DNA of 64,000 nt from assembly GCA_900299235.1 (NCBI GenBank), contig OMIZ01000160.1:79-64078 (forward strand). Reading direction: 5' to 3'. A program made the position numbers and the translations under genes. This stretch comes from Actinomycetota bacterium (GTDB lineage Bacteria; Actinomycetota; Thermoleophilia; Gaiellales; Gaiellaceae). The notes below the pieces were generated by a model, which saw only the letters and a program-made list of their open reading frames with translations, was not told the DNA's origin and did no database searches. This document shows positions 9,420 through 57,054 of this stretch, piece after piece (position 1 is the stretch's first letter; each line of letters begins with the position of its first letter).

Positions 9420-9561
9420 CGCTACCCCCATCCCCGTTCGCGCCGTGGGCCGTCCCCCGATCGCGGTCGGACGACCGCCCGAAGGAGGGGGTGGGGCCGG
9501 TTCACGTCTCCGAGTATCGCTTACGAGGCGTCGTCCGCCGCGAGATACGCTGCGGAGTACG
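9420..9561. promoter_or_regulatory. Divergent intergenic region (asnB-like / GT operons); must hold two promoters
   Basis: This is a 142-nt non-coding gap between divergently oriented starts. It contains a purine tract GAAGGAGGGGG (9481-9491). I could not assign a -10/-35 with confidence. Confidence 0.3.
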
Positions 9562-12535: not shown

Positions 12536-12544
12536 GCCCGGATT

Positions 12545-17054: not shown

Positions 17055-17086
17055 CGCCCTAGCCCGCTTCGGTGCACAGAACGATC

Positions 17087-18958: not shown

Positions 18959-18960
18959 AG

Positions 18961-21387: not shown

Positions 21388-21438
21388 ACGTGTGCCCTTT
21401 GAGGTGAACGGTGGAGCGAGCAGGCATCCTAATCCCGC
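21388..21438. promoter_or_regulatory. Divergent intergenic region (GT4-GT4 fusion / GT4)
   Basis: This is a 51-nt gap between divergent starts once the 21588 start is rejected. The promoters probably extend into coding DNA. Confidence 0.25.
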
Positions 21439-23828: not shown

Positions 23829-24817
23829 CGAACTACAGCGTTCCTGATTGCGGCGACCGGAGCGAGTGGATCGAGGCGCGTTACGTTCGCGATCAGCGCT
23901 CGATCGGTGAGAATCGAGCGCGGTGCCGCTGCGGCGAGTCGCCGAGCCACGCGTCGGCACTCTCGGTGGATGCTGCGCTCACTTCGACGCCCTCTCAGCT
24001 GGTGGAGTGCTTTGAGGAGCAGTCGTGCTCCGGCCCGTTCCTCCAGGCTCAAATGCCGCGGGAATCCCTGCGTGAGTACCCGCGCAGCGCTCAGTTCTGC
24101 GTCGTCAGCCTCGATCCCAAGCGTGGCGAGGTTCCGTCGCGCGACGATGCTCGCGGCTCGCTCTTGGCGCTGAGCCCGCGTGCTGCTCACCTGCCCGGGG
24201 TGGATGCGATACGCGACAAGTGCCTTGGGAATGTTCGCGCCGTTACCGAGCGTGAGCAGGTCGCACCAGAGTCCGTAATCCTCGCTCGGCTCAAGCGATG
24301 GGTCATAGGCATGGCCGAGCGTGGCAATGTCGCGCCTTCGGAATGCGACGCTTGAGTGAGCGAAGGGATTCTGGAAGAGAGCACGGACGCGAATCTCGGC
24401 GTCGCTTCGTGGCTGTCGATCGATTCGAATGGGGGCTCCGGCATCGTCGATCACCTCGATGTCAGACCCGACAATCGCTAGTCGCTCATCGCTTCTGAGC
24501 CTGGCGACCTGGGCCGCTATCCGTCCTGGACGGGAGAGATCGTCGGCATCCTGACGAACGAGGATCTCTCCACGTGCGTGTTCGATCGCGATGTTCAGCG
24601 CTTTGGTGTAACCCCCGTTGTGCGGGAGGGTGATCACGGTAAGGCGGTGATCATCGAATTGGGCGAGGATGCGTTGCGTGGTATCGGTTGAGCCGTCGTC
24701 GACCACGAGCAGTTCAAGATCTACGAACGTCTGCCGGAGAATCGACGCGACAGCATCCGCGACGTAGGCCTCAGCGTTGTATGCGGGCATGAGCACGCTG
24801 ACCGTGGGTGCGGTCAC
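23825..24817 (-). CDS. Glycosyltransferase, GT2 family
   Basis: VSVLMPAYNAEAYVADAVASILRQTFVDLELLVVDDGSTD is the GT-A N-terminus and DADD is the DxD motif. GTG 24817 overlaps the upstream TGA (GTGA); the listed 24859 start would overlap by 46 nt. Confidence 0.8.
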   Translation of the reverse strand: MTAPTVSVLMPAYNAEAYVADAVASILRQTFVDLELLVVDDGSTDTTQRILAQFDDHRLTVITLPHNGGYTKALNIAIEHARGEILVRQDADDLSRPGRIAAQVARLRSDERLAIVGSDIEVIDDAGAPIRIDRQPRSDAEIRVRALFQNPFAHSSVAFRRRDIATLGHAYDPSLEPSEDYGLWCDLLTLGNGANIPKALVAYRIHPGQVSSTRAQRQERAASIVARRNLATLGIEADDAELSAARVLTQGFPRHLSLEERAGARLLLKALHQLRGRRSERSIHRECRRVARRLAAAAPRSILTDRALIANVTRLDPLAPVAAIRNAVVR

Positions 24818-34964: not shown

Positions 34965-35663
34965 ATGCGCGACGCTCATGACAATCTGTCAGGCTCGACT
35001 GAAGTGACGACCTTTCCTGACATTGCGGTCATCGTCCCGGCGCACAACGAAGAACTCTACGTCGAACGTGCGCTGCGGAGCCTTGTGTATCAGACGCTTG
35101 ACGATGAGTTGTACGAGATCATTCTGGTTGACGACGGCTCCGAGGACGCGACTGCCCGGATCGCGGAGAAGTTCGCGCCCCACGTACGCATGCTGACGAA
35201 CGAGTCGCGACTCGGGCTGCCAGCCTCGATCAACCGCGGCATCCGCGAGGCGAACGCCCGATACGTCGTGCGCGTCGACGCCGACGACTACGTCCACCCA
35301 GACTTTCTACGCATTCTGCATCTCTTCCTCGACCTCAACCCCCACATGAGTGCGATTGCGTGCGATTACATAACGGTCAACGCCGATGAAGAGCACGTTT
35401 CGCGTGAGGCGGTCGACGCCGCACCGATCGGCTGCGGAATCATGTTCCGCAAGGAGCGGCTTGTCGAGATCGGTTTGTACGACGAGAGCTTCCTGATGGC
35501 TGAAGATCTTGACCTCCGGCTTCGCTTTGAACGGAAGTGGCAGATCCATCGGGTTGAGCTGCCGCTCTACCGCTACCGCTTTCACGGGGAGAACATGACG
35601 TCGGCTCGCGAGGATTACGACGGATACATCGAGCGCGCGATGCGGAAGAACACTGACGGATGA
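34965..35663 (+). CDS. Glycosyltransferase, GT2 family
   Basis: IAVIVPAHNEELYVERALRSLVYQTL..EIILVDDGSEDAT is the GT-A N-terminus and VDADD is the DxD motif. The start is ATG 34965 (alternative GTG 35004). The stop overlaps the next start (ATGA at 35660). Confidence 0.8.
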   Translation: MRDAHDNLSGSTEVTTFPDIAVIVPAHNEELYVERALRSLVYQTLDDELYEIILVDDGSEDATARIAEKFAPHVRMLTNESRLGLPASINRGIREANARYVVRVDADDYVHPDFLRILHLFLDLNPHMSAIACDYITVNADEEHVSREAVDAAPIGCGIMFRKERLVEIGLYDESFLMAEDLDLRLRFERKWQIHRVELPLYRYRFHGENMTSAREDYDGYIERAMRKNTDG

Positions 35664-36736
35664 CGCCTGCCGCTCCGATCGACTTGGCGACGTATGCGGG
35701 CTGGGACGCCCCGATCTTTCTCATCGCAGAGGCAGGGGTCAATCACGGCGGCGATCTCGATGCCGCGCGCGAGATGGTTCGGGCGGCTGCAGGCGCTGGC
35801 GTCGATGCAATCAAGTTCCAGACCTACAGCGCATCGCGCATCGCGACCAAGTCGTCAGCGGCGTATTGGGACCGAACGCAGGAGCCAACGGCGACCCAGT
35901 TCGAGCTTTTCTTGAAGTACGACGGGCTCAAAGAGAGCGACTATCGCGCGCTCGCCGCCGAATGCGAGGCCGCCGGTGTGTTGTTCCTCACAACACCGTT
36001 CGATACTGACTGCGTCTCTTGGCTTGATCCGCTCGTTGGAACATGGAAGATCGCCTCGGCCGACATCACGAACCCGGTGCTGCTCAGGCGTGTTGCACGC
36101 ACAGGGAAGAGCGTCGCTCTCTCGACCGGAGCCTCAACGCTCGACGAGATCGCGGCTGCAGTCGCGCTGCTGCAGACGGAAGGTGCGCAGTCGGTCGCAT
36201 TGCTGCAGTGCACGCTCTCGTACCCGACTGCCGCAGCTGACGCTGCGGTCGGTGGGCTGGTCGGACTACGGTCGGCGTTCCCCGGCATCGCATTGGGCTA
36301 CTCCGACCACACGCAGCCAGGGGACAGCTACGCCGTGATCGCTGCTGCGTACACGCTGGGCGCCCGGGTGATCGAGAAGCACTTCACGCTCGACGCGTCA
36401 CTGCCGGGCAACGACCACTACCACGCGTTCGAACCGGACGGTTTCGTTCGACTGCGAGCCGAGCTCGACGGCCTACGCGCGATTCTCGGCTCAGCGAGCA
36501 AGGCAGTGCTCGTGAACGAGCAGGCCGCTCGCACACATGCTCGACGCAGCTTGGTATCCCGTGGTGATCTCGCTGCGGGCACCGTAATCACCGAGGATGT
36601 CCTTGACGTGAAGCGGCCAGGCACGGGAATCAGCCCGGTTGAGCTGGGTCGTGTCCTCGGCCATCGTCTTGCAGTTGACGTACCCGATGACACGACGCTG
36701 CAGTGGGAGATGCTCGTCGGAGCCGATGAGCGCTGA
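35660..36736 (+). CDS. NeuB-family nonulosonic-acid synthase (N-acetylneuraminate/pseudaminate/legionaminate/Kdn-phosphate synthase family) with C-terminal SAF domain
   Basis: IFLIAEAGVNHGGDLDAAREMVRAAAGAGVDAIKFQTY, FLTTPFD, KIASADITN, ALSTGAS, LLQCTLSYPT, GYSDHT, IEKHFTLD and KRPGTGISP align block-for-block with remembered N. meningitidis NeuB. Confidence 0.85.
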   Translation: MTPAAPIDLATYAGWDAPIFLIAEAGVNHGGDLDAAREMVRAAAGAGVDAIKFQTYSASRIATKSSAAYWDRTQEPTATQFELFLKYDGLKESDYRALAAECEAAGVLFLTTPFDTDCVSWLDPLVGTWKIASADITNPVLLRRVARTGKSVALSTGASTLDEIAAAVALLQTEGAQSVALLQCTLSYPTAAADAAVGGLVGLRSAFPGIALGYSDHTQPGDSYAVIAAAYTLGARVIEKHFTLDASLPGNDHYHAFEPDGFVRLRAELDGLRAILGSASKAVLVNEQAARTHARRSLVSRGDLAAGTVITEDVLDVKRPGTGISPVELGRVLGHRLAVDVPDDTTLQWEMLVGADER

Positions 36737-37460
36737 CGCCCATTCGGGCGGCGCGATCATCCTGCAGGCGCGGGCAGGGTCGACGAGGCTTCCGGCCAAG
36801 GTGCTGCGTCCATTTGGGGACGTCACGCTCCTTGAACACATCGTCGCGCGGCTCCGTGCGACCGAGCTGCCGGTGTGGGTCGCGACCTCGACGCTGCATG
36901 GCGACGATCCGGTCGCCGAGTTGGCCGGGCAGGCTGGTGCCGACGTCTTCCGTGGTGACGAGGCAGATGTCCTCGGTCGCTTTGCCGCGTGCGTCGAGGC
37001 AATGCCTCATCGACCCGATCACATCGTGCGGATCTGTGCTGATCGGCCATTCGTCTCTCCCGACGTGATCCTCGATCACGTTGCCGCGTGGGTCGAGGCG
37101 GGTCGCCCCGCGATCGTCTCGAGTTCGATCGAGCCGAGCTTCCCGATTGGTCTTGAGGTCGAGGTCGTCGCCACGGATGCACTGATCACCGCGGCGGCGG
37201 AGGCACGCGACCCGTACGAGCGCGAGCACGTGACCCCGTACCTCTACCGCCACCCCGATGTCTTCGCGCAGGTATCGCTCACGTGCCCGTACGGCAACTA
37301 CGCCCACGTTCGTGCTGTCGTCGATACCTTTGCCGATTACGACGCCCTCGTGCGCGTCAACGAACGACTTGAGCGTGTTCGAGCGGATCATGGGTTCGAG
37401 GAGTTGCTGACGCTCGCAACAGTCGATCTCGGAACGTTCCCGTCAGAGGCCGCGGTATGA
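36726..37460 (+). CDS. Cytidylyltransferase, SpsF/acylneuraminate cytidylyltransferase (CTP_transf_3) family
   Basis: GGAIILQARAGSTRLPAKVLRPFGDVTLLEHIV matches the SpsF/NeuA-type N-terminal nucleotide-binding motif. ATG 36726 overlaps the neuB-like stop by 11 nt. Confidence 0.7.
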   Translation: MSADAHSGGAIILQARAGSTRLPAKVLRPFGDVTLLEHIVARLRATELPVWVATSTLHGDDPVAELAGQAGADVFRGDEADVLGRFAACVEAMPHRPDHIVRICADRPFVSPDVILDHVAAWVEAGRPAIVSSSIEPSFPIGLEVEVVATDALITAAAEARDPYEREHVTPYLYRHPDVFAQVSLTCPYGNYAHVRAVVDTFADYDALVRVNERLERVRADHGFEELLTLATVDLGTFPSEAAV

Positions 37461-38629
37461 GTGAGCCGTGCGTCTACGTCGTGCATGCGATCGATACGGA
37501 GGGGCCTCTTGGCGGCGATGCCCGACGCAATCCGGACGGCTCGGCGGAGTTCTTCGACAACTGGGACGACATCCTCGTCTCTCTCGCTGAGCTGACGTTG
37601 CCTGCGTGGCGCGCGACGCACTGCGACAGCTTCGGCGATCTATACCGATTCAACTGGTTCATCATGGATTTCACCGGCTTCAGGACGAACCCGAAATGTC
37701 GTGTAGCCGAGTATCACGACACGTGGGACAGGATCCACTCGCTGCCGGTTGAGCTCGACGGACGGTATTGGCATTACCACGTGCCCCCTGCAAACGGTGC
37801 TGGCGACCAATGGTCGGAGTCGTGGCTCACGAGCAACGAGTGCAACGCGGTGCTCACTCGGAGGCTGCTTGAGCGTGGTGCGTTCCCACCCGCGTTTCGC
37901 GCCGGTGGAACGATCGAGGATGACGCTGCGTCACGATGGCTTGAGGAGACGATCCCGATCGACTACTCCAACCGTGTCTCGCACCGTTCAGTCCCCACGG
38001 ACGACCTCTATCGCTTCAACTGGTTCGGTGCGCCTGACGCGTGGGGTGCCTACCACCCGTCACGGATCAACTTCCTCAAACCGGGTGGGATGCGCCGAGT
38101 GGTCTATCGCTGCATCGACTACCGATCGCGCTACAACGACATGACGGAGGAGATCGCGACGGGGTGTTTCCTCGCCGTGAAGGCCGACGGGCGTCCGCGC
38201 GTTCTCTCGTTTTTCAGTCATGACACCCGTGACATGCGGCCCGAAACCTACGACGCTGTTGCCCTCTTGCGGACGGTCTCCGAAGCGACGGGCGTCCCCT
38301 GGCGTTCTGCGACGGCGGTGGGCGCACACCAGGCGGTGTCGGGAACGATCGCGAAACCGCTTACGGTCTCGCTAGAGCAGCATCCTGCCGGCGTGCGTAT
38401 CGAGACGCACGGCGACGTGTTCCAGCGCGTTCCTTTCGTCGGGGCAGAACTCCGCGACGGGAGGTTCGTTCGGCTGTTCCCGCGGCCGATCGCCTCGGGA
38501 CGATGGGAGCTTGCGGCCTTTGGTGACGAGATCGTCGCACTTGGTGTCGCGGTGTCGAACGTCGCCGGAGAGGTTGCGCTCCAGCGCGTCCGCTTCGTCG
38601 ATGGACTGATGACGCTGGTGGAGGCATGA
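37457..38629 (+). CDS. Uncharacterised 390-aa protein (possibly glycoside-hydrolase/deacetylase beta/alpha-barrel-like; very tentative)
   Basis: ATGA coupling is seen at both ends. The N-terminus is VYVVHAIDTEGPLGG. The octapeptide DLYRFNWF occurs twice (37637-37660 and 38003-38026). There are no TM segments. Confidence 0.6.
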   Translation: MSEPCVYVVHAIDTEGPLGGDARRNPDGSAEFFDNWDDILVSLAELTLPAWRATHCDSFGDLYRFNWFIMDFTGFRTNPKCRVAEYHDTWDRIHSLPVELDGRYWHYHVPPANGAGDQWSESWLTSNECNAVLTRRLLERGAFPPAFRAGGTIEDDAASRWLEETIPIDYSNRVSHRSVPTDDLYRFNWFGAPDAWGAYHPSRINFLKPGGMRRVVYRCIDYRSRYNDMTEEIATGCFLAVKADGRPRVLSFFSHDTRDMRPETYDAVALLRTVSEATGVPWRSATAVGAHQAVSGTIAKPLTVSLEQHPAGVRIETHGDVFQRVPFVGAELRDGRFVRLFPRPIASGRWELAAFGDEIVALGVAVSNVAGEVALQRVRFVDGLMTLVEA

Positions 38630-39102
38630 GCGGTAGCGAGTACGAAGCCCGGTTTTTCGAGCGGCGCGTCCACGATGAGGAGAAGGGGATCTCCTTCTCG
38701 CTGCCGGAGGGTGAGGCTTGGGCTGACCTCGTTGTCTTGCGGGGCTCGTTGCAGCACCTCAATCGCCCGATCGAGACGCTGACCGCGGCGGCATCGTGGC
38801 TTCGTACTGGTGGCTGGCTCGTGGCTCTCGCCACGCCCAATGCGGGAGGGCCGGTGTATCGGCTCTTCCAGGACCTGCCCACCCTCGACCCGCCACGCAA
38901 TTGGGTTGTCTTCTCGGACCGGGTGCTCGCGCAGATCCTGACCAATCTTGGCTTCGCCGACGTGTCGTTTCACTATCCGTATCGCGAATCGCCGTATGCT
39001 CATCCTGTGCGCGACCACCTGCGGTTTGTATTGCGATTACTTGGGATCAAGCGTCCCTTTGCGTTCTGGCGAAACATGATGGAGTGCTATGCGCGGCGTT
39101 GA
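38626..39102 (+). CDS. Methyltransferase-like protein lacking SAM-binding motif I (truncated or degenerate class I MTase)
   Basis: ADLVVLRGSLQHLNRPIETLTAAASWLRTGGWLVALATPNAGGPVYRLF resembles MTase motifs II-IV. Only 32 residues precede it, and none form GxGxG. Confidence 0.5.
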   Translation: MSGSEYEARFFERRVHDEEKGISFSLPEGEAWADLVVLRGSLQHLNRPIETLTAAASWLRTGGWLVALATPNAGGPVYRLFQDLPTLDPPRNWVVFSDRVLAQILTNLGFADVSFHYPYRESPYAHPVRDHLRFVLRLLGIKRPFAFWRNMMECYARR

Positions 39103-39973
39103 TCGTCTGCTCTTCGAAAGCGCTCGCCTGCGTCGGCGGGTTGTGTTGTTCCGTGACGGCGTGCGTCGCCGTCGTCAGGAGAGCGCTCCGTGGAGGCAGG
39201 CACAGTTCGCGATCGCCGACTACGAGGTGCGAGCGGTGGACGAGCTTCGCGAACGGCGTCGCTCGGACACCGTCTACGTCTTCGGCTCGGGGGCGTCGCT
39301 CAACGCCATCACCCCACGTGAGTGGTTGGCGATCGAGGAGCACGATACGTTCGGTTTCAACTGGTTTGTGCGGCAGGACTTTGTTCGCTGCGACTTTCAT
39401 CTCATTCGTGGAGTTTCCGACAGCACGCTCCTAAGCTCGGGCTTCGACGAAGATCTCACTTTGTACTTTTCAACGCTCGCCGCGAATCCCCGGTTCTCGG
39501 ATACGACGTTGCTCGTGCAGCACGAACAACGCGCGGTTGCGGCGAACGTCGCATTTGCGCGTGGTCTGATGCCAAAGCGACGCATCGTGCCGTTCACGAC
39601 GTTTATTGGCGATCAGCCGAGTCGGCGCTTCGAAGCTGGGTTGACGCACGCGTCATCGACGCTCCACGACACGATTAACGCCGCGTGGCTACTTGGGTGG
39701 AAGCAGATTGTTCTGGTCGGTGTCGACCTCTACGACCGGCGGTACTTCTGGCTTGGAGACGACGATGTGCGTGGCCTGGATCGCGAGCGCGGGGCCGTGA
39801 GTTCTGACGCCCACAGCCAGGTCAACATGGGGTTCATCGGCCGGATCGGTGACTGGTCAGCGATCCTCGCCGCGGAGGGGTGCACGTTGGAAGTGCTCAA
39901 TTCGCGCTCGCTGCTCGCCGAGGTACTCCCGCTCCATCCCCTGCAAGCCCCGCCAGAATCGGGCCATTCATGA
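39089..39973 (+). CDS. Cst-II/GT42-like (sialyltransferase-like) candidate nonulosonic-acid transferase
   Basis: VYVFGSGASLNAI..HDTFGFNWF compares with Cst-II IIAGNGPSLKEI..FDVFRCNQF. LGWKQIVLVGVDLYD compares with LGYKEIYLSGIDFYQ. SDAHS..LEVLNSRSLLAEVLPL compares with GHS..LYCLCPNSLLANFIELAP. The Cst-II sequence is recalled from memory. Confidence 0.55.
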   Translation: MRGVDRLLFESARLRRRVVLFRDGVRRRRQESAPWRQAQFAIADYEVRAVDELRERRRSDTVYVFGSGASLNAITPREWLAIEEHDTFGFNWFVRQDFVRCDFHLIRGVSDSTLLSSGFDEDLTLYFSTLAANPRFSDTTLLVQHEQRAVAANVAFARGLMPKRRIVPFTTFIGDQPSRRFEAGLTHASSTLHDTINAAWLLGWKQIVLVGVDLYDRRYFWLGDDDVRGLDRERGAVSSDAHSQVNMGFIGRIGDWSAILAAEGCTLEVLNSRSLLAEVLPLHPLQAPPESGHS

Positions 39974-41013
39974 GTTCACTTCGCGTGCTCAGGCGCCGAG
40001 TCGCGCTCGCTCTCATGTTTCGGGTATCACGGATCCGACGGTCACGGAGTGTGAGGTTGCTACGTCACACGATGCTTCGACTCCGCAGTTCCTTTCAGGA
40101 CTTTGACGTCGCCGTTTTTCACGACTTCGTTCCACCCCCGTCGGGTGGGGGCCACCAGTTCCTTCGCACGCTGATCGGCGAGTTCGAACGCCGCGGACTC
40201 AAGGTTGAGATCAACACGATCTCAAGGTCGACCGTGGCCTGCCTCTTCAACTCGTTCAACTACGACGCTGAGCGACTCCAGGCGCTCCGAAGGCCGACCT
40301 GCCGTCTCGTCCACCGTGTCGATGGGCCTGTGGGGATCTACCGGGGGCACGACGATGGTACGGATGCGGCAATTGAAGCAGCTAACGCGGCGTTTGCCGA
40401 CGCCACGGTGTTCCAATCGGAATACAGCGCCGCCGCCCACCGCGATCTTGGCCTGACCTTCCAGTACCCGACGATCATTCACAACGCATCGGACCCTCAG
40501 CTGTTCTTCCCGGCCGAAGGCATCGGGACGCGCATGTCGCCCGCAGGGAGACTCCGCTTGATCGCGAGCGCGTGGTCAGACAATCCCAACAAGGGTCTTG
40601 AGACGTTCCGTTGGCTCGATGCCAATCTCGATTGGGAGCGTTTCGAGATGACGTTTGTTGGACGTGTACAGGAGGTGTTCGTGAACATCGAGATGGCGCC
40701 ACCCGTCGATCAGCATGAGCTCGCTGCCCTGCTGCGATCTCATCACGTGTACGTATGTGCGAGCAGGCACGAGCCATGTTCGAATGCGTTGATCGAGGCG
40801 CTGTCGTGTGGACTCCCTGCGCTCTATCTCGAAAGCGGAAGCAACGGCGAACTTGTTGGTCGGGGGGGCCTTGGCTTTGCGACACCAGAGGACATCCCGG
40901 GCGCCTTGGAGCAGCTCTCCCAGCAGTACGATCGCTTTCGAGGCGCGGTGGCCCCGCCGACGATCGGCGATGTGGCCGACCGGTACCTCGAGGTGCTTGG
41001 GATTACGCCTTGA
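39970..41013 (+). CDS. GT-B-fold glycosyltransferase (paralogue of 33917..34900)
   Basis: There is an ATGA overlap at 39970. PPSGGGHQFLRTLIGEFERRGLKV and EPCSNALIEALSCGLPALYLESGSNGELV are present. Confidence 0.65.
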   Translation: MSSLRVLRRRVALALMFRVSRIRRSRSVRLLRHTMLRLRSSFQDFDVAVFHDFVPPPSGGGHQFLRTLIGEFERRGLKVEINTISRSTVACLFNSFNYDAERLQALRRPTCRLVHRVDGPVGIYRGHDDGTDAAIEAANAAFADATVFQSEYSAAAHRDLGLTFQYPTIIHNASDPQLFFPAEGIGTRMSPAGRLRLIASAWSDNPNKGLETFRWLDANLDWERFEMTFVGRVQEVFVNIEMAPPVDQHELAALLRSHHVYVCASRHEPCSNALIEALSCGLPALYLESGSNGELVGRGGLGFATPEDIPGALEQLSQQYDRFRGAVAPPTIGDVADRYLEVLGITP

Positions 41014-42140
41014 GTGCGCCGGGTGGGGATATTGCGACCGTCCGTGCAATCGATCGAGCGCGATCGATTGCACGACGTGTTGAGGCAGCTGGGTTCAGGG
41101 TACGAGCAACGCGCTTTCGCCCTTACACGCGTCTGTTGCCGGTGGGTGACTGGGCATCGTGGGTCATCGACGAGGAGATGGCAAGCGTTCGTCGTGTTGC
41201 CCGCGGACTCGGGATTCGGGTGGAGGAGCGAAGGCGGCTGAACCTGCTCGATGCACAGAGCGTCTTCTTTGGAAGCCAGTTTGATCTCTTAGGGAGAGCG
41301 ACCGACCTTCGCTCCCATCGCGTCGCGACGGCGTACTTTCATGGGAAGCCGGGAACCGGCTATCCCGACTTCGACACGATCTACGAACGACTCAGGCAGA
41401 CGCACGAGCGTCTGTCACGCATTCAAGTCTCGCACCGCGAGATGCGCGAGATCGTCCTCGAATCGGGCATCGCGCCCGATAAGGTTCATCTCATCCCCAT
41501 TGGGATTGAACTCGCGCTCTTCGCTTTGCGAACGCAGGCATCGTGCGCCGAGGCTCGGCGCACGCTCGGCCTGCCGCTCTCTGTCCCTGTAATTGGCTCG
41601 TTCCAGAAGGACGGCGTCGGCTGGGGTGAGGGTCTTGAGCCGAAGGCCATTAAAGGCCCAGATGTGTTTGTGGACGTTGCGGCTCGCCTCGTACAGTCCT
41701 TTCCTGACCTGCATGTCTTGCTGTCCGGGCCGGCTCGCGGCTACGTGAAGACTCGCCTCTCCGAACGTGGGATTCCCTACGTTCACGTTCATCCTAAGTC
41801 GTATCGGGGTATGGGGCAGCTCTACCAGGCGCTAGACGCTTACTTGATCAGCTCGAGGCAGGAAGGCGGGCCTAAGGCTGTGCTTGAGTCGCTCGCTGTC
41901 GGCGTGCCTCTTGTGTCGACGCGGGTGGGCCAGGCGAACGACCTTATCGAGCACGGGGTCAACGGGTATCTCGTCGATATCGACGACGTGGACGGCCTCG
42001 CCCACTATGCGACGCTCGCGCTTGACACGCCGAACTCGTTTGAGGCGTCGGGTCGAGCGACGGCCGAAGCGCACTCCTATGCAAGGCAGGCCCCTCTTTG
42101 GGAACGGTTCTTCGACGGCTTCGTCGAGTGGAATTTCTAG
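41010..42140 (+). CDS. Glycosyltransferase, GT4 family
   Basis: The TTG at 41010 overlaps the upstream TGA (TTGA). The C-terminal motif is SSRQEGGPKAVLESLAVGVPLVSTRVGQANDLIEHGVNGYLV. Confidence 0.75.
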   Translation: MSAPGGDIATVRAIDRARSIARRVEAAGFRVRATRFRPYTRLLPVGDWASWVIDEEMASVRRVARGLGIRVEERRRLNLLDAQSVFFGSQFDLLGRATDLRSHRVATAYFHGKPGTGYPDFDTIYERLRQTHERLSRIQVSHREMREIVLESGIAPDKVHLIPIGIELALFALRTQASCAEARRTLGLPLSVPVIGSFQKDGVGWGEGLEPKAIKGPDVFVDVAARLVQSFPDLHVLLSGPARGYVKTRLSERGIPYVHVHPKSYRGMGQLYQALDAYLISSRQEGGPKAVLESLAVGVPLVSTRVGQANDLIEHGVNGYLVDIDDVDGLAHYATLALDTPNSFEASGRATAEAHSYARQAPLWERFFDGFVEWNF

Positions 42141-42160: not shown

Positions 42161-43249
42161 CTAAGACGTTTGTCGCGCGACCTTCTCAATCTCGGCCAGC
42201 AACGGTGTGATCAACGCGTTGTAAGTGCACCGGGCGGAGGCGACCTCGAAGGCCGCCTCAGCCAGCCGCTCACAACGGTCGAGATCGGCGAGTTGCGTGA
42301 GCACGTCGTCAAGATTTTCGAAGTCGCGCTGCAACGAGATGTAGTGCTCGCCGGGTTGAAAAAGCCCGCCATACGCACCCTCGAGCAACACCAGCGGCGT
42401 CTTCGTTGCGGCCGCCTCGATAACGCGGCCACTGATCGTCCTTCCGGATACCGGGCTCGGATACTCCAGGAAGAAGCGCTCCGCAACATCGTCAAACGTC
42501 GCGTTGGGATGCTCGTCGAGGTACGCGTTCACGCCAAGGCGTGTGTGGTCGTCGAGTTCGAAGAAGTCTGTTCCTGCTTCACACCCGAGCTGCACCTTGC
42601 AGCTTTGAAGAAAGGTGGCCCAGCCGGTCTCATCGAATCGGTCATTCGGATCAATCGACACGTCGACGCGCAAGCCAGCCATGCGCGTGCGAGTAAACGT
42701 CTCCGCAAGCACCGCTCGGTCGCGATAGCCGACATACCACGGCGTATCGAACGCGCGGTACCCGATGTCGATCGGGCGGTCAGCCAGGGGTGGGCCGGGT
42801 GCGAACACAGACGGGTCAAAGCCGGTGTTGGGAATCGCGACGACGTTGCAGCCGAGTCGCTCTCGGTAGAGGTCAAGCACCGGCTCAGCAAGGATCTGTG
42901 AGACCAGGACGTTGATCCCAAACTCTTCACCAAACGCCATCTTCTCGGGCATCAACTTGTACTCGTTTCCGATGAACCAGGCCTTCGGCTTCGTTGTTCG
43001 CTTGATCAACGCAGCGAGGTCACCCCGCAGGAGGTTCCCCTGCGAAAAGACCGAGTGCAACATCACGATCGCATCGCACTGGCGCAGGATCCAGCGGTTC
43101 CTCAACCGTCGGTCTGGGTCGAGTGTGTTCACGAACGTGCACGTCAATCGCGGATCGGCCGCGAGTCCGCGGGGCCAACCGTGGAGATACGAGAGCGTCG
43201 CGAAGCTCTTATCGACTGCGAGCAGTACCGCGACGCGAAGTTGGCTCAT
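42161..43249 (-). CDS. Glycosyltransferase-like protein (CgeB/Glyco_trans_1_2-like C-terminus)
   Basis: The C-terminal block SGRVIEAAATKTPLVLLEGAYGGLFQPGEHYISL is typical of CgeB-type GT-B proteins. The N-terminal half is unassigned. Confidence 0.55.
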   Translation of the reverse strand: MSQLRVAVLLAVDKSFATLSYLHGWPRGLAADPRLTCTFVNTLDPDRRLRNRWILRQCDAIVMLHSVFSQGNLLRGDLAALIKRTTKPKAWFIGNEYKLMPEKMAFGEEFGINVLVSQILAEPVLDLYRERLGCNVVAIPNTGFDPSVFAPGPPLADRPIDIGYRAFDTPWYVGYRDRAVLAETFTRTRMAGLRVDVSIDPNDRFDETGWATFLQSCKVQLGCEAGTDFFELDDHTRLGVNAYLDEHPNATFDDVAERFFLEYPSPVSGRTISGRVIEAAATKTPLVLLEGAYGGLFQPGEHYISLQRDFENLDDVLTQLADLDRCERLAEAAFEVASARCTYNALITPLLAEIEKVARQTS

Positions 43250-43268: not shown

Positions 43269-44177
43269 TCACTGCAGCCCGTGCGTCACGCGTTCAATCA
43301 TCAGCGAGCACACGCGATCGATGCCCTCGTCGAGCGAGACCGTCGGCACCACACCCAGCAGGTCACGTTGCCGATCAAGGGACGGGCGCTTGACGAGAGT
43401 CATACGTGAAGGCAGGTCGCTAAACGTCAGCAGATCAGGGTCGGCTTCGAGTCGAATGCAGATTCGCTCCGCAAGCTCTTCGATCGGAACGATGTCAGGG
43501 TGGCCGATGTTGATCACTGCGTACTCGGCTACCTCGGACGCCGCTTCGATTGCGCGAATGGCGTCGGAGACGTGCAGCCAACCTCTCGCGCTTCCTCGAT
43601 GCACGTCGATCGGTCTCCCAACCGCGAGGTTGCTCGCAAAGCGGATCATCGCGGAGCGGTGATCGCCGAGATCCTCGTTCTCGTCGTACATCATGAACGG
43701 GCGCAATGTCACGGCACGTAGTCCGTGAGTGCGAACCTCGTACTCGACGAGCTGTTCGCCGAGGAGCTTCGTCAGTCCGTAGCGGTTGTTTGGCTTCGGA
43801 ACCGTCGTCGCCTCGTCCATCACTTCCACATCAGGGCCGTAGACCTCAGATGTTGAGAAGAACACGGTCATTGCGTTGACGCGCTTACAGAGCTGAAGGA
43901 CGTTGTTGATGCCGCCGAGGTTTGTCGACACGGCAAGCCCACTCGCCTGCTCACATGTCACGCGGCTGACCATCGCTGACAACACGAAGACGACATCCGG
44001 GCCCCAGTCGAACGCCGGCAGGAGATCGACGGGATGGTTGATGTCCGCCATCACGTAGTCATGGCGAAACGCGGGGCGGATATCCGATTCGAGAACGTCC
44101 CAGCCGAGGCTGCGAAGATGGAGCACGAGCGGGGCCCCGATGTTGCCCTCTGAGCCGATGACGAGTGCCTTGCCCAC
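43269..44177 (-). CDS. NAD-dependent sugar-nucleotide epimerase/dehydratase (extended SDR)
   Basis: ALVIGSEGNIGAPL is the GxxGxxG motif. FSTSEVYG and YGLTK provide the catalytic S...YxxxK set. Confidence 0.8.
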   Translation of the reverse strand: MGKALVIGSEGNIGAPLVLHLRSLGWDVLESDIRPAFRHDYVMADINHPVDLLPAFDWGPDVVFVLSAMVSRVTCEQASGLAVSTNLGGINNVLQLCKRVNAMTVFFSTSEVYGPDVEVMDEATTVPKPNNRYGLTKLLGEQLVEYEVRTHGLRAVTLRPFMMYDENEDLGDHRSAMIRFASNLAVGRPIDVHRGSARGWLHVSDAIRAIEAASEVAEYAVINIGHPDIVPIEELAERICIRLEADPDLLTFSDLPSRMTLVKRPSLDRQRDLLGVVPTVSLDEGIDRVCSLMIERVTHGLQ

Positions 44178-44911: not shown

Positions 44912-46189
44912 TCAGCTCGACGAGAGATCCCAGGCGAGCAGCGGTCGTACCGGTGCAGTCCACGTCCCAACGTAGTCGCCGCGTGAGGTGGTGCCATCGC
45001 CTGCATCGAGAACCTGGAACGTGATCGCTTCGAGCGCGCGCGCCACGACGTCGGCGCGTCCACCCGACACAAACGTGTTGAGCGACGCCGTAACGAGGAC
45101 AGTGCCTTCGTTCATGAGATTGCCGGGAATCCACGCGGTGCTCGTGTAGGTTCCCGGTGCCCGCGGTTGACGCCAATCCGGATCGGTATCGAACGCGCTG
45201 AAGATCGGACCGCCAAGGTCGCTCTCAAGCTGAATCCACGGGACGAACTTGAGGGGTTCAAGAACGTCGTACGTCATCTCGATCCCGATCGGGCGACGAA
45301 TGTCAAATGCATCCTGGGTGACGTGGTCAGCGTCGACTGCCCGTATCGCGCGTAGTCGGGCGAAAGCGCTTCCTGGCGCTGTTGCTTCGTCCCAGGTCAC
45401 GGAGCTACCGATCCCATGCCCCGACTGGAGATAGGTGGCAACGACGTCGTTTACCGGGCCGTCCGCCGCAATAGCGCCTCCGTGAAGCAAGATTGCGCGC
45501 TTACAGAACCGGCTGATTGTCGGCATCGAGTGCGACACGAGAAGCACCGTCCGTCCCTCTTTGCCAATCGATTCCATCTTGCCTAGGCAGCGTCTCTGGA
45601 ACTCGGCGTCGCCGACTGCGAGTACCTCGTCGACGATCAATACTTCGGGCTCAAGGTGGGCGGCAACTGCGAACGCGAGCCGGACGTACATGCCGCTTGA
45701 GTACCGCTTCACCGGTGTGTCGAGGAACCGTTCGACTCCCGAGAACTCGACGATGTCGCCGAACTTGGCTCGCACCTCCGCGCGATGCATACCGAGGATC
45801 GCGCCGTTCAGGAAGATGTTCTCGCGGCCTGTCAGTTCGGGATGGAACCCAGCCCCGACCTCGAGCAGACTGCCGAGGCGCCCCTCGATCACCGCCCGGC
45901 CCGATGTGGGCTCCGTGATGCGGGAGAGGAGCTTGAGCAGGGTGCTTTTTCCCGCACCGTTCCGGCCAATGATTCCGACAACCTGTCCTTTCGGGACGTC
46001 GAAGCTCACGTCGCGAACGGCCCAGAGGGTCTCCGCCTTTGTTGGCTCTCGCATGCTCGCTGAGAGGTAGGCGAAGGGGTTCGTCACCGACCGCACAAGC
46101 GTCTGTCCGAGGCCGGACGAGCGGGCTGCGGGCGCACCGATGCGGTAGCGCTTTGACAGTGCTTGGACGCTGACGGCGAGGTCGCTCAT
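44912..46189 (-). CDS. wzt: Polysaccharide-export ABC transporter ATP-binding protein (Wzt/TagH type) with ~170-aa C-terminal extension
   Basis: Walker A is GRNGAGKST, the signature is YSSGMYVRLAFAVA, and Walker B is VLIVDEVLAVGD. The non-NBD tail is predicted beta-rich (SSVTWDE...FQVLDAG). Confidence 0.9.
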   Translation of the reverse strand: MSDLAVSVQALSKRYRIGAPAARSSGLGQTLVRSVTNPFAYLSASMREPTKAETLWAVRDVSFDVPKGQVVGIIGRNGAGKSTLLKLLSRITEPTSGRAVIEGRLGSLLEVGAGFHPELTGRENIFLNGAILGMHRAEVRAKFGDIVEFSGVERFLDTPVKRYSSGMYVRLAFAVAAHLEPEVLIVDEVLAVGDAEFQRRCLGKMESIGKEGRTVLLVSHSMPTISRFCKRAILLHGGAIAADGPVNDVVATYLQSGHGIGSSVTWDEATAPGSAFARLRAIRAVDADHVTQDAFDIRRPIGIEMTYDVLEPLKFVPWIQLESDLGGPIFSAFDTDPDWRQPRAPGTYTSTAWIPGNLMNEGTVLVTASLNTFVSGGRADVVARALEAITFQVLDAGDGTTSRGDYVGTWTAPVRPLLAWDLSSS

Positions 46190-47029
46190 CTACTGGGAAT
46201 CCACCACTGTGCGCTCGGTACGACGGAAGACGTAGGCGCCCGAGACGACGAGCAGCAGCACGGCACCGAGCGGGATCAGCATGATCGGTCGTGGCCCGAC
46301 ACCTTCGCCGAGCAGGCCGTAGCGGAAGCCCGCGACAACCCAGTACATGGGGTTGAGTTGGTAGACAAGCTGCCAACTCTGCGGAATCAGGCTTGCTGAA
46401 TAGGCGACAGGAGTCGCGTAGAGCCAGATCTGGAGTCCGTAGGTCGTCGCGTACTGGAGGTCGCGGAACTTCACCGCGGCCGTAGCCGTCCACAGGCCGA
46501 TTGCGAGTGCGGTGAGCATCGCGTAGATGACGTAGAGCGGGACTGCAGCAACCCACCATGTCGGCGCCCAGCCGTACGCCGCCATCATCACGCCGAGTAC
46601 GGCGAACGCGAATACAAGGTCGACGAGTCCGCCGAGAGCTGCCGCGATTGGAATGACGAGGCGGGGGAAGTACACCTTCGAGATCAGGCCGAGTTGTGAG
46701 ACGAGGCTTCCTGACGTTGCTCCAACCGCCGTGGAGAAGTACGTCCAGGCGATCAAGGCAGAGAACGTGAAGAGCGGATAGGGAATACCGTTTGAGGGCA
46801 GCCGTGCAATGTGGCCAAACAGCACGGTGAAGATGATCATCGTGAGGAGCGGCCGCAGGATGATCCACAGCGGGCCGAGCGCCATCTGGCGGTAGCGGCT
46901 CTTGATCTCGCGGCTCGTGAGGAACCAGAGCAGCTCGCGCGACCGCCAGAGGTCAGCGAGGCCGAGGCTTCGCCAGCCCCGCGTCGCTTCGATGACGAGT
47001 GGTTCGACCTGACCCGGGACGGCGCTCAC
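46190..47029 (-). CDS. wzm: ABC-2 type polysaccharide-export permease (Wzm/TagG type)
   Basis: LWRSRELLWFLTSREIKSRYRQMALGPLWIILRPLL is the ABC-2 hallmark, and there are 6 TM spans. The stop abuts the wzt ATG (TAGATG). The start is GTG 47029 or ATG 47116; the latter overlaps the upstream GT4 gene by 50 nt. Confidence 0.8.
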   Translation of the reverse strand: MSAVPGQVEPLVIEATRGWRSLGLADLWRSRELLWFLTSREIKSRYRQMALGPLWIILRPLLTMIIFTVLFGHIARLPSNGIPYPLFTFSALIAWTYFSTAVGATSGSLVSQLGLISKVYFPRLVIPIAAALGGLVDLVFAFAVLGVMMAAYGWAPTWWVAAVPLYVIYAMLTALAIGLWTATAAVKFRDLQYATTYGLQIWLYATPVAYSASLIPQSWQLVYQLNPMYWVVAGFRYGLLGEGVGPRPIMLIPLGAVLLLVVSGAYVFRRTERTVVDSQ

Positions 47030-56990: not shown

Positions 56991-57054
56991 CCGCACAAGT
57001 GTAAGCACCCCCTTGGCGAGGCGACGGCAGGGGTATCAACTACGCTGATGGCGC
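56991..57054. promoter_or_regulatory. Divergent intergenic region (gmd / ATP-grasp operon)
   Basis: This is a 64-nt gap if gmd starts at ATG 56990. Confidence 0.25.

What the first reader, a model, noticed from the sequence alone, without database searches (positions are those of the whole stretch)
35660..39973. Coupled nonulosonic-acid (sialic-acid-like, possibly Kdn-type) synthesis, activation and transfer module in a high-GC glycan locus
Five consecutive plus-strand genes are joined by start/stop overlaps: ATGA at 35660, 37457, 38626 and 39970, an 11-nt overlap at 36726 and a 14-nt overlap at 39089.

- A NeuB-family synthase with a SAF domain.
- An SpsF/NeuA-type cytidylyltransferase.
- An unassigned 390-aa protein.
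- A methyltransferase-like protein without motif I.
- A Cst-II/GT42-like transferase.

Together these form a make-activate-attach set for a 9-carbon keto sugar. Nowhere in the 64 kb did I see a NeuC-type hydrolysing 2-epimerase, a PseB/PseC or LegB/LegC dehydratase-aminotransferase pair, or an N-acetyltransferase. That leaves three options. The sugar may be non-aminated (Kdn-like, as in the teichulosonic acids known from some Actinomycetota). The precursors may come from elsewhere in the genome. The unassigned genes may instead supply a new route. I treat this as the best candidate in the window for an undescribed pathway variant.
Basis: partly seen in the sequence, partly recalled or inferred. 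Interest (0 to 1): 0.75.

Follow-up and report, generated by a model that had tools for sequence, protein, structure and literature searches.

The report
Sialic-acid-like sugar cassette, two unknown enzymes
An uncultured actinobacterium carries a conserved gene cassette that makes, activates and attaches a nine-carbon sialic-acid-like sugar to an exported cell-surface polysaccharide; the cassette lacks the usual precursor genes and includes two protein families nobody has described.

Summary
Window 34965-39973 (+) carries six translationally coupled genes:
- a small GT2 glycosyltransferase;
- a NeuB+SAF synthase with every catalytic residue kept;
- an SpsF-type CMP-sugar synthetase;
- a 390-aa protein (U390);
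- a methyltransferase remnant;
- a 294-aa protein (U294).

U294 has no Pfam or PDB sequence match.

U390 is a family with no Pfam match. Its model has a NodB/CE4-like deacetylase barrel plus a β-sandwich, though the structural match is marginal.

The methyltransferase lost SAM motif I through a clean in-frame 60-codon deletion, seen against its 218-aa orthologue.

The cassette recurs in at least 12 loci from uncultured Actinomycetota, with looser versions in Dehalococcoidia and Saccharibacteria. In one locus it is directly fused to a Wzm/Wzt exporter operon.

No NeuC, Pse/Leg aminotransferase, acetyltransferase or HAD phosphatase lies in the 64 kb, and almost none in the related loci.

The nonulosonic-acid call is supported. 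The Kdn idea has no positive evidence: the synthase clade sits nearest NeuB/LegI-type enzymes, and U390 looks like a de-N-acylase. Verdict: a new variant of a known kind, moderately interesting.

The parts
34965..35663 (+). Small soluble GT2 glycosyltransferase (232 aa), ATGA-coupled to neuB; a constant first gene of the cassette.
   Evidence: PF00535 106.6 bits. Matches PDB 6p61 'Glycosyltransferase' (228 aa) at 231 bits, E 1e-67, over its full length. Lies next to NeuB in L006, L008, L011-L014, L016, L023, L024 and L025.
35660..36736 (+). NeuB-family nonulosonic acid synthase with a C-terminal SAF domain (358 aa).
   Evidence: PF03102 225.8 bits and PF08666 38.6 bits. TIGR03569 302 bits (cutoff 399.65) and TIGR03586 215 bits (cutoff 340). 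PDB matches: SpsE 160 bits, NmNeuB 150, PseI 125. Catalytic residues E25, K53, Q55, K129, S132, S154, Y186, S213, H215, E234, H236, D247 and R314 are kept; clade-specific changes are E134D, N184L, F288H, F290R and A291R. Forms a clade distinct from the reference enzymes.
36726..37460 (+). SpsF-type CMP-sugar synthetase (244 aa), overlapping neuB by 11 nt.
   Evidence: PF02348 92.8 bits. Only weak KdsB and PseF equivalog hits. Best PDB match is 6oew 'Cytidylyltransferase', 92 bits.
37457..38629 (+). U390: cytoplasmic protein of an undescribed family, with a NodB/CE4-like (β/α) barrel (about residues 1-300) and a C-terminal β-sandwich (about 300-390). Proposed tailoring hydrolase (de-N-acylase).
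   Evidence: No Pfam, NCBIfam or PDB sequence hit, even with a family profile. AF2 model pLDDT 89.4. Foldseek: HP0310 deacetylase E 1.4e-3 prob 0.99, PA1517, PuuE. 531 representative clusters in 1.84 billion proteins. Homologues fused to MT, GNAT and formyltransferase domains. Always next to CTP and NeuB.
38626..39102 (+). Remnant of a class I SAM methyltransferase (158 aa): an in-frame 180-bp deletion removed motif I, so it is probably inactive.
   Evidence: Methyltransf_23 matched only over profile positions 78-163 of 164. Protein and DNA alignments to the 218-aa orthologue of L006 show one clean 60-codon gap covering VLDIGCGLGEF.
39089..39973 (+). U294: Maf/GT42-fold transferase (294 aa) with a basic N-terminal helix. 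Proposed CMP-nonulosonate transferase.
   Evidence: No Pfam or PDB sequence hit above threshold. AF2 model pLDDT 94.2. Foldseek: Maf 5mu5 2e-5, Cst-II 2x63 6e-5, Cst-I 2p2v 8e-5, all prob 1.0. 33 of 36 family members weakly hit PF01973. Invariant GSGxS, GVDLYDRxYFW and H242.
40072..41013 (+). GT4-type glycosyltransferase (313 aa as called; alternative ATG at 39970). Strain-specific, not part of the conserved cassette.
   Evidence: PF13692 and PF00534. ATGA at 39970. Absent at this position in L006 and L023.
41142..42140 (+). GT4-type glycosyltransferase (332 aa); last gene of the + strand run.
   Evidence: PF00534 and PF13692.
42161..43249 (-). U362: unassigned protein with a weak CgeB-like GT-B C-terminus. 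Travels with the SDR in close relatives.
   Evidence: PF13524 E 4.3e-5. 72% identical orthologue in L006; 362/363-aa unassigned genes occupy the same slot beside the SDR in L023 and L025, homology not tested there.
43269..44177 (-). SDR epimerase/reductase (302 aa).
   Evidence: PF01370 107 bits. 92.6% identical to the L006 orthologue.
44912..46189 (-). Wzt-type ABC ATPase (425 aa) with a C-terminal extension homologous to a Wzt_C carbohydrate-binding domain.
   Evidence: PF00005. 54% identity over the full length to the L023 Wzt, which carries PF14524 Wzt_C. The PDB 8dku/7k2t alignment runs to residue 359.
46190..47029 (-). Wzm-type ABC-2 permease (279 aa).
   Evidence: PF01061.

Best explanation
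Window 34965-39973 is a horizontally mobile, six-gene cassette for a nonulosonic acid (NulO).

Proposed steps:
1. NeuB condenses phosphoenolpyruvate with a six-carbon aldose to give a nine-carbon 2-keto-3-deoxy acid.
2. The SpsF-type cytidylyltransferase converts it to the CMP-sugar.
3. U390, a cytoplasmic metal-hydrolase-like protein with a NodB/CE4-type barrel, and the adjacent methyltransferase tailor the sugar or its acceptor. The most likely chemistry is removal of an N-acyl group, with the freed amine then methylated. In other lineages it would be formylated or acylated instead.
4. U294, a minimal Maf/GT42-fold enzyme, transfers the CMP-sugar onto a glycan to which the coupled GT2 contributes the neighbouring residue.
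5. The product is exported by the nearby Wzm/Wzt ABC transporter, whose ATPase carries a carbohydrate-binding C-terminal domain. The NulO is therefore plausibly a non-reducing-end cap that marks finished chains for export.

In this strain the methyltransferase is crippled by an in-frame deletion, so the methyl decoration is probably missing.

Shown: the family or fold of each protein, an intact NeuB active site, the deletion, conservation of the cassette, linkage to Wzm/Wzt, and absence of canonical precursor genes.

Inferred: the identity of the sugar, the chemistry of U390, the acceptor, and the capping role.
For: - Family and fold assignments.
- NeuB catalytic residues are all conserved.
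- The order GT2-NeuB-CTP-U390-(MT)-U294 is conserved in L006, L008, L011-L015, L023 and L025. Looser versions occur in L009, L016, L017 and L024.
- The U390, U294 and GT2 hit lists share the same contigs.
- Fusions link U390 to amine- or hydroxyl-modifying enzymes: U390::MT and MT::U390 (P0262, P0302), U390 with GNAT (P0098, P0101) and with Formyl_trans_N (P0306). CTP::MT occurs in L017.
- U390 is retained whatever the apparent sugar supply: HAD in L017, LegB/PtmE-like genes in L015, nothing nearby elsewhere. This argues that it acts after condensation.
- U390 has no signal peptide (sequence).
- In L023 the cassette runs straight into wzm-wzt(Wzt_C). The window's Wzt is 54% identical to that protein, including the C-terminal domain.
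- The methyltransferase deletion is documented.
Against: - The CE4-like assignment of U390 rests on marginal Foldseek scores (best E 1.4e-3, TM 0.36-0.49, rmsd 7-10 Å). There is no sequence-level support, and CE4-fold enzymes are not all deacetylases (PuuE is an allantoinase).
- If the sugar carries an N-acetyl group, its ManNAc-type precursor must come from genes not seen in 64 kb or in any related locus.
- The methyltransferase is absent from about a third of cassettes (L008, L013, L024), so it is not obligatorily paired with U390.
- No acceptor or linkage can be read from sequence.
- The window also holds Wzy and flippase genes of other glycan pathways, so assigning the cassette to the ABC-exported polymer rests on adjacency.
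- Independent confirmation of the methyltransferase deletion is weak, because the matching contigs may come from one sample.
Confidence: 0.55

Rival explanations
1. Kdn-type (non-aminated) pathway. NeuB condenses PEP with mannose or mannose-6-phosphate taken from central or GDP-mannose metabolism, so no amino-sugar genes are needed. The product is a Kdn-containing, teichulosonic-acid-like wall polymer.
For: No aminotransferase, NeuC or N-acetyltransferase lies in the 64 kb or in about 12 related loci. GDP-mannose-dehydratase-like genes in the window show that GDP-mannose is available. Small cupin 'MannoseP_isomer' genes occur in L009 and L024. A KdsC-like HAD phosphatase sits next to NeuB in Saccharibacteria locus L017. 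Kdn teichulosonic acids and a NeuA/NeuB cluster are known in Streptomyces (PMC3479208, PMC13011467).
Against: No HAD phosphatase is in the window or in any actinobacterial cassette. The L017 NeuB belongs to a different lineage from the window's clade. The window's clade is nearest NeuB/LegI enzymes that use N-acetylated substrates (41% identity). A deacylase-fold enzyme fused elsewhere to GNAT or formyltransferase domains has no obvious substrate on Kdn. L015, whose NeuB is the next closest relative after L006 (64% identity), carries LegB-like (49%) and PtmE-like (43%) genes that point to a HexNAc-derived 6-deoxy precursor. Comparison with the Streptomyces SCO4881 enzyme was not possible.
Confidence: 0.2
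2. U390 supplies the precursor. It would be a non-homologous replacement for NeuC, LegG or PseG: a hydrolase that releases the free aldose from an abundant nucleotide sugar (for example UDP-GlcNAc or GDP-mannose), making the cassette self-sufficient.
For: Every bacterial Neu, Leg or Pse route needs an NDP-sugar hydrolase just before the synthase. None is present, and U390 is the only unassigned conserved enzyme. GNAT-U390 fusions mirror the common PseH-PseG pairing (the pairing itself is recalled from knowledge of the Pse pathway). The (β/α)7 barrel is shared with GH38 and GH57 glycosidases (rank 22).
Against: U390 is kept in L017, where a HAD phosphatase implies a sugar-phosphate route that needs no NDP-sugar hydrolase. 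Its position and fusions tie it to the methyltransferase and the CMP-synthetase rather than to the upstream side. No 2-epimerase function is evident.
Confidence: 0.15
3. The cassette glycosylates a protein (flagellin, pilin or S-layer) rather than a polysaccharide, as Maf-family enzymes do.
For: The best structural match of U294 is the flagellin NulO-transferase Maf. The family weakly matches the Maf/DUF115 Pfam model.
Against: U294 is 294 aa and covers only the catalytic core; Maf is 632 aa. All contexts are polysaccharide loci with GT2/GT4, Wzy and Wzm/Wzt genes and no flagellar genes.
Confidence: 0.07

Closest known systems
Bacterial CMP-legionaminic and CMP-N-acetylneuraminic acid pathways (NeuB/LegI + NeuA/LegF + NeuC/LegG; example loci L019 and L022)
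   Same: A NeuB-family synthase with a SAF domain and a full catalytic set; a CTP_transf_3 activating enzyme; nearest typed synthases at 41% identity.
   Different: No NeuC/LegG hydrolysing epimerase, no LegB/LegC/LegH. The synthase falls below the NeuB_NnaB equivalog cutoff (302 vs 399.65 bits). The cassette adds U390, a GT2 and U294.
Bacillus subtilis sps legionaminic acid operon (SpsA GT2, SpsE, SpsF, with SpsC/D/G/M) (PMC7439481)
   Same: The trio GT2 + SpsE-like synthase + SpsF-type cytidylyltransferase in one operon. SpsE is the best PDB sequence match of the synthase (160 bits).
   Different: Only 33% identity to SpsE. No SpsC aminotransferase, SpsD acetyltransferase, SpsG hydrolase or SpsM dehydratase. 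The GT2 is not SpsA-like (SpsA is not among the PDB hits).
Streptomyces coelicolor Kdn-teichulosonic acid cluster SCO4873-SCO4882 (PMC3479208; Ostash 2014, cited in PMC13011467)
   Same: An actinobacterial wall-glycopolymer locus with NeuA/NeuB homologues and glycosyltransferases.
   Different: The Streptomyces cluster has a NanE-like epimerase and a NeuE-like protein. It has no reported U390, U294 or small GT2 counterparts. Its sequences could not be compared here.
GT42 sialyltransferases (Cst-I, Cst-II) and Maf/DUF115 flagellin NulO-transferases
   Same: The fold of U294 (Foldseek prob 1.0, TM about 0.45-0.5). A Gly-rich N-terminal motif, a G-x-D-L/F-Y motif, and an invariant His about 30 residues downstream. 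The correspondence of that His to Cst-II His188 is an inference from memory of that structure.
   Different: No significant sequence match to PF06002; only sub-threshold matches to PF01973. No PDB sequence hit, even with a profile. U294 is much shorter than Maf.
CE4/NodB-fold deacetylases (HP0310 PgdA, PA1517, PuuE) and Nod-factor terminal-residue editing (NodC/NodB/NodS)
   Same: Barrel fold with conserved His, Asp and Glu residues at β-strand ends (H10/D13/E15, H106/H108, H255/D256). Genetic pairing of a GT2, a deacylase-fold protein and a SAM methyltransferase.
   Different: No sequence similarity to any CE4 model. An extra C-terminal β-sandwich. Embedded in a NulO cassette. The Nod analogy is a resemblance only.
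O-antigen-type Wzm/Wzt exporters with a Wzt C-terminal carbohydrate-binding domain that recognises a chain-terminating cap (E. coli O9a, Aquifex aeolicus; β-Kdo cap in Klebsiella O12)
   Same: A Wzt with a C-terminal extension. The homologue in L023 matches PF14524 and lies directly downstream of the cassette.
   Different: No NulO cap has been shown for such systems, as far as I recall. The capping role here is an inference.

Membership tests
NeuB family nonulosonic acid synthase (PF03102 + SAF PF08666) | Pfam gathering thresholds passed for both domains | tested here: met
   225.8 bits against a cutoff of 22.1; 38.6 bits against 21.
NeuB family nonulosonic acid synthase | Catalytic and metal-binding residues of N. 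meningitidis NeuB (E25, K53, Q55, K129, S132, E134, S154, Y186, S213, H215, E234, H236, D247, R314) | tested here: met
   All identical except the conservative E134D. That change occurs in 29% of environmental NeuBs (PMC8208679).
N-acetylneuraminate synthase equivalog (TIGR03569 NeuB_NnaB) | Score at or above the curated cutoff of 399.65 bits | tested here: not met
   302 bits.
Pseudaminic acid synthase equivalog (TIGR03586 PseI) | Score at or above the curated cutoff of 340.25 bits | tested here: not met
   214.9 bits; 36% identity to a plasmid PseI.
Kdn pathway (Kdn-9-P synthase + HAD phosphatase, Bacteroides or animal type) | A KdsC-like HAD phosphatase accompanies the synthase | tested here: not met
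   No HAD in the 64 kb by Pfam or by tblastn with the L017 HAD. It is present only in Saccharibacteria locus L017.
Kdn pathway | The synthase prefers mannose or Man-6-P, or groups with characterised Kdn synthases | not testable with these tools
   No characterised Kdn synthase sequence was reachable. The Streptomyces homologue that was fetched lies in an unrelated cluster.
Legionaminic or pseudaminic acid pathway | Dehydratase + DegT aminotransferase + N-acetyltransferase + NDP-sugar hydrolase present | tested here: not met
   No hit to LegC, PseC, LegG, NeuC, PseG-like or acetyltransferase queries in the window or in 10 related loci. LegB-like and PtmE-like genes occur only in L015.
CMP-sugar synthetase, CTP_transf_3 (PF02348) | Pfam gathering threshold passed | tested here: met
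   92.8 bits against a cutoff of 22.6. Equivalogs PseF (17 vs 205.7 bits) and KdsB were not met.
GT42 sialyltransferase (CST-I, PF06002) | Sequence match to the family model | tested here: not met
   No hit for the window protein or for any of 36 family members, even at E <= 1.
GT42/Maf (DUF115) structural superfamily | Shared fold with Cst-I, Cst-II and Maf | tested here: met
   Foldseek prob 1.0, E 2e-5 to 8e-5, TM 0.44-0.52, on a model with pLDDT 94.
MptE-like/DUF115 (PF01973) | Pfam gathering threshold (34.6 bits) | tested here: not met
   The window protein scores 14 bits, E 0.045. 33 of 36 relatives give weak hits (best 1.8e-5).
CE4 polysaccharide deacetylase (PF01522) | Sequence match to the family model | tested here: not met
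   No hit for U390 or for 41 relatives at E <= 1. No PDB hit with a family profile.
CE4/NodB-like fold | Structural similarity to solved deacetylase-fold proteins | tested here: inconclusive
   The best hits are all of this fold (3qbu, 1z7a, 3cl6, 3s6o), but with E 1e-3 to 4e-2 and TM 0.36-0.49.
Class I SAM-dependent methyltransferase | SAM-binding motif I (GxGxG) | tested here: not met
   Motif I lies inside the 60-codon in-frame deletion, seen against the L006 orthologue. Only the C-terminal half of PF13489 matches.
Wzm/Wzt exporter with a cap-binding Wzt_C domain | A Wzt_C (PF14524) domain in the ATPase | tested here: inconclusive
   Not listed for the window protein. Its 54%-identical, co-linear homologue in L023 carries it, and the PDB alignment to the CBD-bearing Wzt extends past the NBD.

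The most novel reading that the evidence does not exclude
U390 founds a new enzyme class that defines a previously unrecognised branch of nonulosonic acid biology in uncultured Actinomycetota, Chloroflexota and Patescibacteria. Two forms are possible. It may be a CMP-NulO (or terminal HexNAc) de-N-acylase that, with swappable methyl-, formyl- or acyl-transferases, forms an 'N-acyl editing' cassette yielding free-amine or N-methyl neuraminic or legionaminic-like sugars. Or it may be a non-homologous substitute for NeuC, LegG or PseG that makes the cassette independent of all known precursor routes. In either case the product would serve as a terminal cap read by the Wzt carbohydrate-binding domain.
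Probability: 0.3. Interest if true: 0.75.

Novelty: new variant of a known kind. Interest (0 to 1): 0.55.

Why it matters
Nonulosonic acids are best known as host-mimicry and motility sugars of pathogens. Mass-spectrometry surveys suggest they are widespread in environmental microbes (PMC8157484), yet the genes behind them are mostly assigned by analogy to Neu, Leg and Pse.

This cassette is a compact, widely transferred alternative found only in uncultured lineages so far: Thermoleophilia, Gaiellaceae and other Actinomycetota, Dehalococcoidia and Saccharibacteria. It pairs a divergent synthase clade with two protein families that have no Pfam model and no solved structure.

Working out U390 would reveal either a new tailoring chemistry or a new entry route into NulO synthesis. 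U294 would add a minimal sialyltransferase-fold enzyme useful for glycoengineering. The link to a Wzt with a carbohydrate-binding domain offers a testable case of a NulO acting as an export signal on a Gram-positive-type polysaccharide.

Tried and rejected
- Sequence searches of U390 and U294 against PDB, singly and as profiles, gave nothing useful.
- Pfam on 41 U390 relatives at E <= 1 gave no consistent family.
- PLSDB plasmids hold no homologue of U390, U294 or the small GT2. No annotated context from a cultured organism was obtained.
- A Streptomyces NeuB homologue (L020) was fetched in the hope that it was the Kdn-teichulosonic enzyme. Its neighbours are aminotransferases, an FMN dehydrogenase, a glyoxalase and an RraA-like aldolase, so it belongs to an unrelated cluster. 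It was dropped as a Kdn reference.
- The ORF L015:6322-7470(-), between the LegB-like gene and NeuB, translates to Arg/Gly/Ala-rich junk. The real gene is a GT2 on the other strand.
- PDB codes 6p61, 6oew and 6ncs are not discussed in any held paper. My recollection that they are Leptospira structural-genomics targets could not be verified and is not used as evidence.
- The full-length methyltransferase orthologue gives only generic class I hits, so N- versus O-methylation is unresolved.
- The E134D change was considered as a marker of phosphosugar use. It was rejected because it is common in environmental NeuBs.
- Exact-protein look-ups for two other window genes failed because of start-codon choice.
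- No paper in the library links NulO synthesis with Thermoleophilia or Gaiella, or with a polysaccharide-deacetylase-like enzyme.

Full report
**1. Observation**

- ATGA at 35660 and the 11-nt overlap at 36726-36736 were read from the sequence.
- The other overlaps (4, 4 and 14 nt) follow from the ORF ends.
- An ATGA also exists at 39970. Independent gene calls on identical metagenome contigs start that downstream glycosyltransferase at 40072, and that gene is not conserved with the others.
- The window is identical to ENA and Logan metagenome contigs, which carry the same gene boundaries.

**2. What each gene is**

*Synthase.* It passes Pfam NeuB (225.8 bits) and SAF (38.6 bits). It falls below both NCBIfam equivalog cutoffs: NeuB_NnaB 302 vs 399.65 bits, PseI 215 vs 340 bits. 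Its best solved relatives are B. subtilis SpsE (160 bits), N. meningitidis NeuB (150) and C. jejuni PseI (125). Mapped on the meningococcal enzyme, every catalytic or metal residue is kept. The clade-specific substitutions E134D, N184L, F288H/G/Y, F290R and A291R are shared by all cassette-linked synthases except that of L017. E134D is common in environmental NeuBs (PMC8208679).

*Activating enzyme.* It is a CTP_transf_3 protein (92.8 bits) without an equivalog assignment. Its best PDB match is 6oew.

*GT2.* It is 232 aa. It matches PDB 6p61, a 228-aa glycosyltransferase, over its full length at E 1e-67.

*Methyltransferase.* The 158-aa protein matches only the C-terminal half of Methyltransf_23. 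Alignment with the 218-aa orthologue of the nearest relative (L006, 82% identity) shows one clean in-frame gap of 60 codons (180 bp). The gap removes the VLDIGCGLGEF SAM-binding motif.

*U294.* It has no Pfam, NCBIfam or PDB sequence match. A family alignment of 36 sequences gave an AlphaFold model with pLDDT 94.2. Its top structural matches, all at probability 1.0, are:
- the flagellin NulO-transferase Maf (5mu5, E 2e-5);
- Cst-II (2x63, 6e-5);
- Cst-I (2p2v, 8e-5);
- MptE.

Thirty-three of 36 family members give sub-threshold hits to PF01973 (MptE-like/DUF115) and none to PF06002. Invariant GSGxS, GVDLYDRxYFW and His242 resemble the nucleotide-binding, DFY and catalytic-His elements of GT42; that reading is an inference. 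U294 is thus a minimal Maf/GT42-fold transferase.

*U390.* It has no family at all, even when 41 relatives are scanned at E <= 1 or a profile is run against PDB. Its model (pLDDT 89.4) shows a (β/α) barrel followed by a β-sandwich (about residues 300-390). All the leading full-length Foldseek hits are NodB/CE4-fold proteins: HP0310 PgdA (E 1.4e-3, prob 0.99), PA1517, PuuE and a Burkholderia deacetylase. TM is only 0.36-0.49. Invariant His, Asp and Glu residues sit at β-strand ends: H10/D13/E15, H106/H108 and H255/D256. The protein has no signal peptide.

**3. Conservation and context**

The U390 and U294 searches returned only unnamed metagenomic proteins, many on the same contigs. The GT2 search did likewise, apart from two hits carrying generic NCBI MAG names.

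A scan of GTDB representatives found U390 only in MAGs: 'Actinomycetota bacterium' (81% identity), Thermoleophilia, Gaiellaceae, Dehalococcoidia and Saccharibacteria. A profile search of 1.84 billion representatives gave 531 clusters.

The order GT2-NeuB-CTP-U390-(MT)-U294 is kept in L006, L008, L011-L015, L023 and L025. Looser arrangements keep U390, GT2, CTP and NeuB in L009, L016, L017 and L024.

Fusions occur in several forms:
- U390::MT and MT::U390 (P0262, P0302);
- U390 with GNAT (P0098, P0101);
- U390 with a weak formyltransferase domain (P0306);
- CTP::MT in L017.

More distant family members are parts of secreted multidomain proteins.

In L023 the cassette runs directly into wzm-wzt, and that Wzt carries a Pfam Wzt_C domain. 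The window's Wzt (44912-46189, −) is 54% identical to it over the full length. It aligns to the CBD-bearing Aquifex-type Wzt beyond the nucleotide-binding domain.

The rest of the 64 kb is one large glycan region:
- many GT2 and GT4 genes;
- two Wzy genes and a flippase;
- two AsnB-like amidotransferases and a carbamoyltransferase;
- several SDRs, including a GDP-mannose-dehydratase-like gene.

**4. Precursor question**

Pfam scans of essentially all long ORFs found none of the following: Epimerase_2, DegT, LbH or GNAT acetyltransferase, AGE or HAD.

I fetched reference loci of the Neu type (L019), Pse type (L021) and Leg type (L022) and searched their enzymes against the window and ten related loci.
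- LegC, PseC, NeuC, LegG, the PseG-like protein, the acetyltransferases, AGE and HAD gave no hit.
- Only L015 holds LegB-like (49% identity) and PtmE-like (43%) genes.
- Only L017 holds a HAD.

In a neighbour-joining tree the actinobacterial cassette synthases are monophyletic (200 of 200 bootstraps). With the L009 and L016 synthases the support is 127 of 200. Identities of the window's synthase to the references are:

| Reference | Identity |
|---|---|
| NeuB/LegI enzymes next to NeuC/LegG | 41% |
| PseI | 36% |
| SpsE | 33% |
| NmNeuB | 32% |

The L017 synthase is a separate lineage.

The Kdn idea therefore has only negative support (absence of amino-sugar genes). Three observations lean the other way: the lack of a phosphatase, the synthase's nearest neighbours, and a deacylase-fold partner. 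I could not compare with characterised Kdn synthases or with S. coelicolor SCO4881. The one Streptomyces homologue reached lies in an unrelated cluster.

**5. Mechanism proposed**

Shown: the enzymes for synthesis and CMP-activation, a sialyltransferase-fold enzyme, a coupled GT2, and linkage to a Wzm/Wzt exporter.

Inferred: U390 acts after condensation as a tailoring hydrolase, because it is retained whatever the apparent sugar supply and is fused or adjacent to the methyltransferase and CMP-synthetase. The partners found fused to it (methyl-, acetyl- and formyl-transferases) suggest that it exposes an amine, either on the NulO or on a HexNAc laid down by the GT2. This resembles the NodC/NodB/NodS logic of Nod-factor editing, by analogy only. 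The NulO may be a non-reducing-end cap recognised by the Wzt C-terminal domain. In this strain the methyl step is probably lost.

Rivals are a Kdn route, U390 as a NeuC/PseG substitute, and protein glycosylation.

**6. Comparison with known systems, and novelty**

The cassette works like the Neu, Leg and sps pathways (PMC7439481) at its core. It fails the equivalog tests for NeuB and PseI and lacks all their precursor enzymes. It shares only NeuA/NeuB with the Streptomyces teichulosonic acid cluster (PMC3479208, PMC13011467).

U294 shares a fold with GT42 and Maf but is not a sequence member of either. U390 is at best a remote CE4-fold relative. No paper in the library links NulO synthesis to these lineages or to such an enzyme.

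I rate this a new variant of a known kind. The NulO call is solid. The sugar's identity and U390's chemistry are open and can be tested directly.

Noticed in passing
window 38626-39102 versus L006 11170-11826: The methyltransferase deletion is exactly 180 bp, in frame, and keeps both translational overlaps. The strain therefore retains a 158-aa product lacking the SAM site. The matching contigs may come from one sample, so independent confirmation is lacking.
   Followed up: partly
window 39970-42140 versus L006 12692-14928 and L023 14147-16392: The content downstream of U294 differs between close relatives. The window has two + strand GT4 genes. L006 and L023 have a 386-aa unknown and a hexapeptide acetyltransferase that the window lacks. 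Exporter and SDR genes are 91-93% identical between the window and L006, while the cassette genes are 76-90% identical.
   Followed up: partly
window 7515-21588 (- strand): A second glycan gene block holds two AsnB-like glutamine amidotransferases (7515-9431, 17087-18958), a carbamoyltransferase (15312-17054), a Wzx-type flippase (13840-15315) and an 875-aa double-GT4 protein (18961-21588). It suggests amidated or carbamoylated sugars in a Wzx/Wzy-dependent polymer.
   Followed up: no
window 22575-23960 (-): A 461-aa protein matches Glyco_transf_61 (PF04577, 89 bits), a family best known from eukaryotes.
   Followed up: no
window 57049-59294 (+): A PylC-like ATP-grasp ligase is followed by a PQQ-type β-propeller protein, next to a GDP-mannose-4,6-dehydratase-like gene (55920-57035, -). 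It may be an amino-acid-ligating sugar modification.
   Followed up: no
L017 10001-14989 (Saccharibacteria MAG CAYJWL010000006): U390 is followed by a cytidylyltransferase::methyltransferase fusion (413 aa), a NeuB of a different lineage, a KdsC-like HAD phosphatase and a further methyltransferase. A NulO-9-phosphate route thus appears in an organism with a reduced genome.
   Followed up: partly
L015 3120-8653 (Actinobacteria MAG CANNRA010000012): The cassette is split by PtmE-like (CBS + nucleotidyltransferase), LegB-like dehydratase and second SDR genes, but no aminotransferase. This hints at a 9-deoxy, mono-amino NulO.
   Followed up: partly
P0373 and P0389 (distant U390 relatives): Remote members of the U390 family are embedded in large secreted proteins of 1220-1236 aa, with F5/8-type-C and DUF11 domains or a β-helix. 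The fold is therefore also used extracellularly on carbohydrates.
   Followed up: no
window 34965-35663: The small GT2 matches PDB 6p61 at E 1e-67, far closer than glycan-specific glycosyltransferases usually are across phyla. The origin and genomic context of 6p61 could not be checked.
   Followed up: partly
L008 13000-14007 and 17972-19702; L009 1-774; L025 4418-6139; window 15312-17054: NodZ-like fucosyltransferase (in L008) and NodU-like carbamoyltransferase genes recur near the cassette in several loci. This adds to the resemblance to Nod-factor decoration genes.
   Followed up: no
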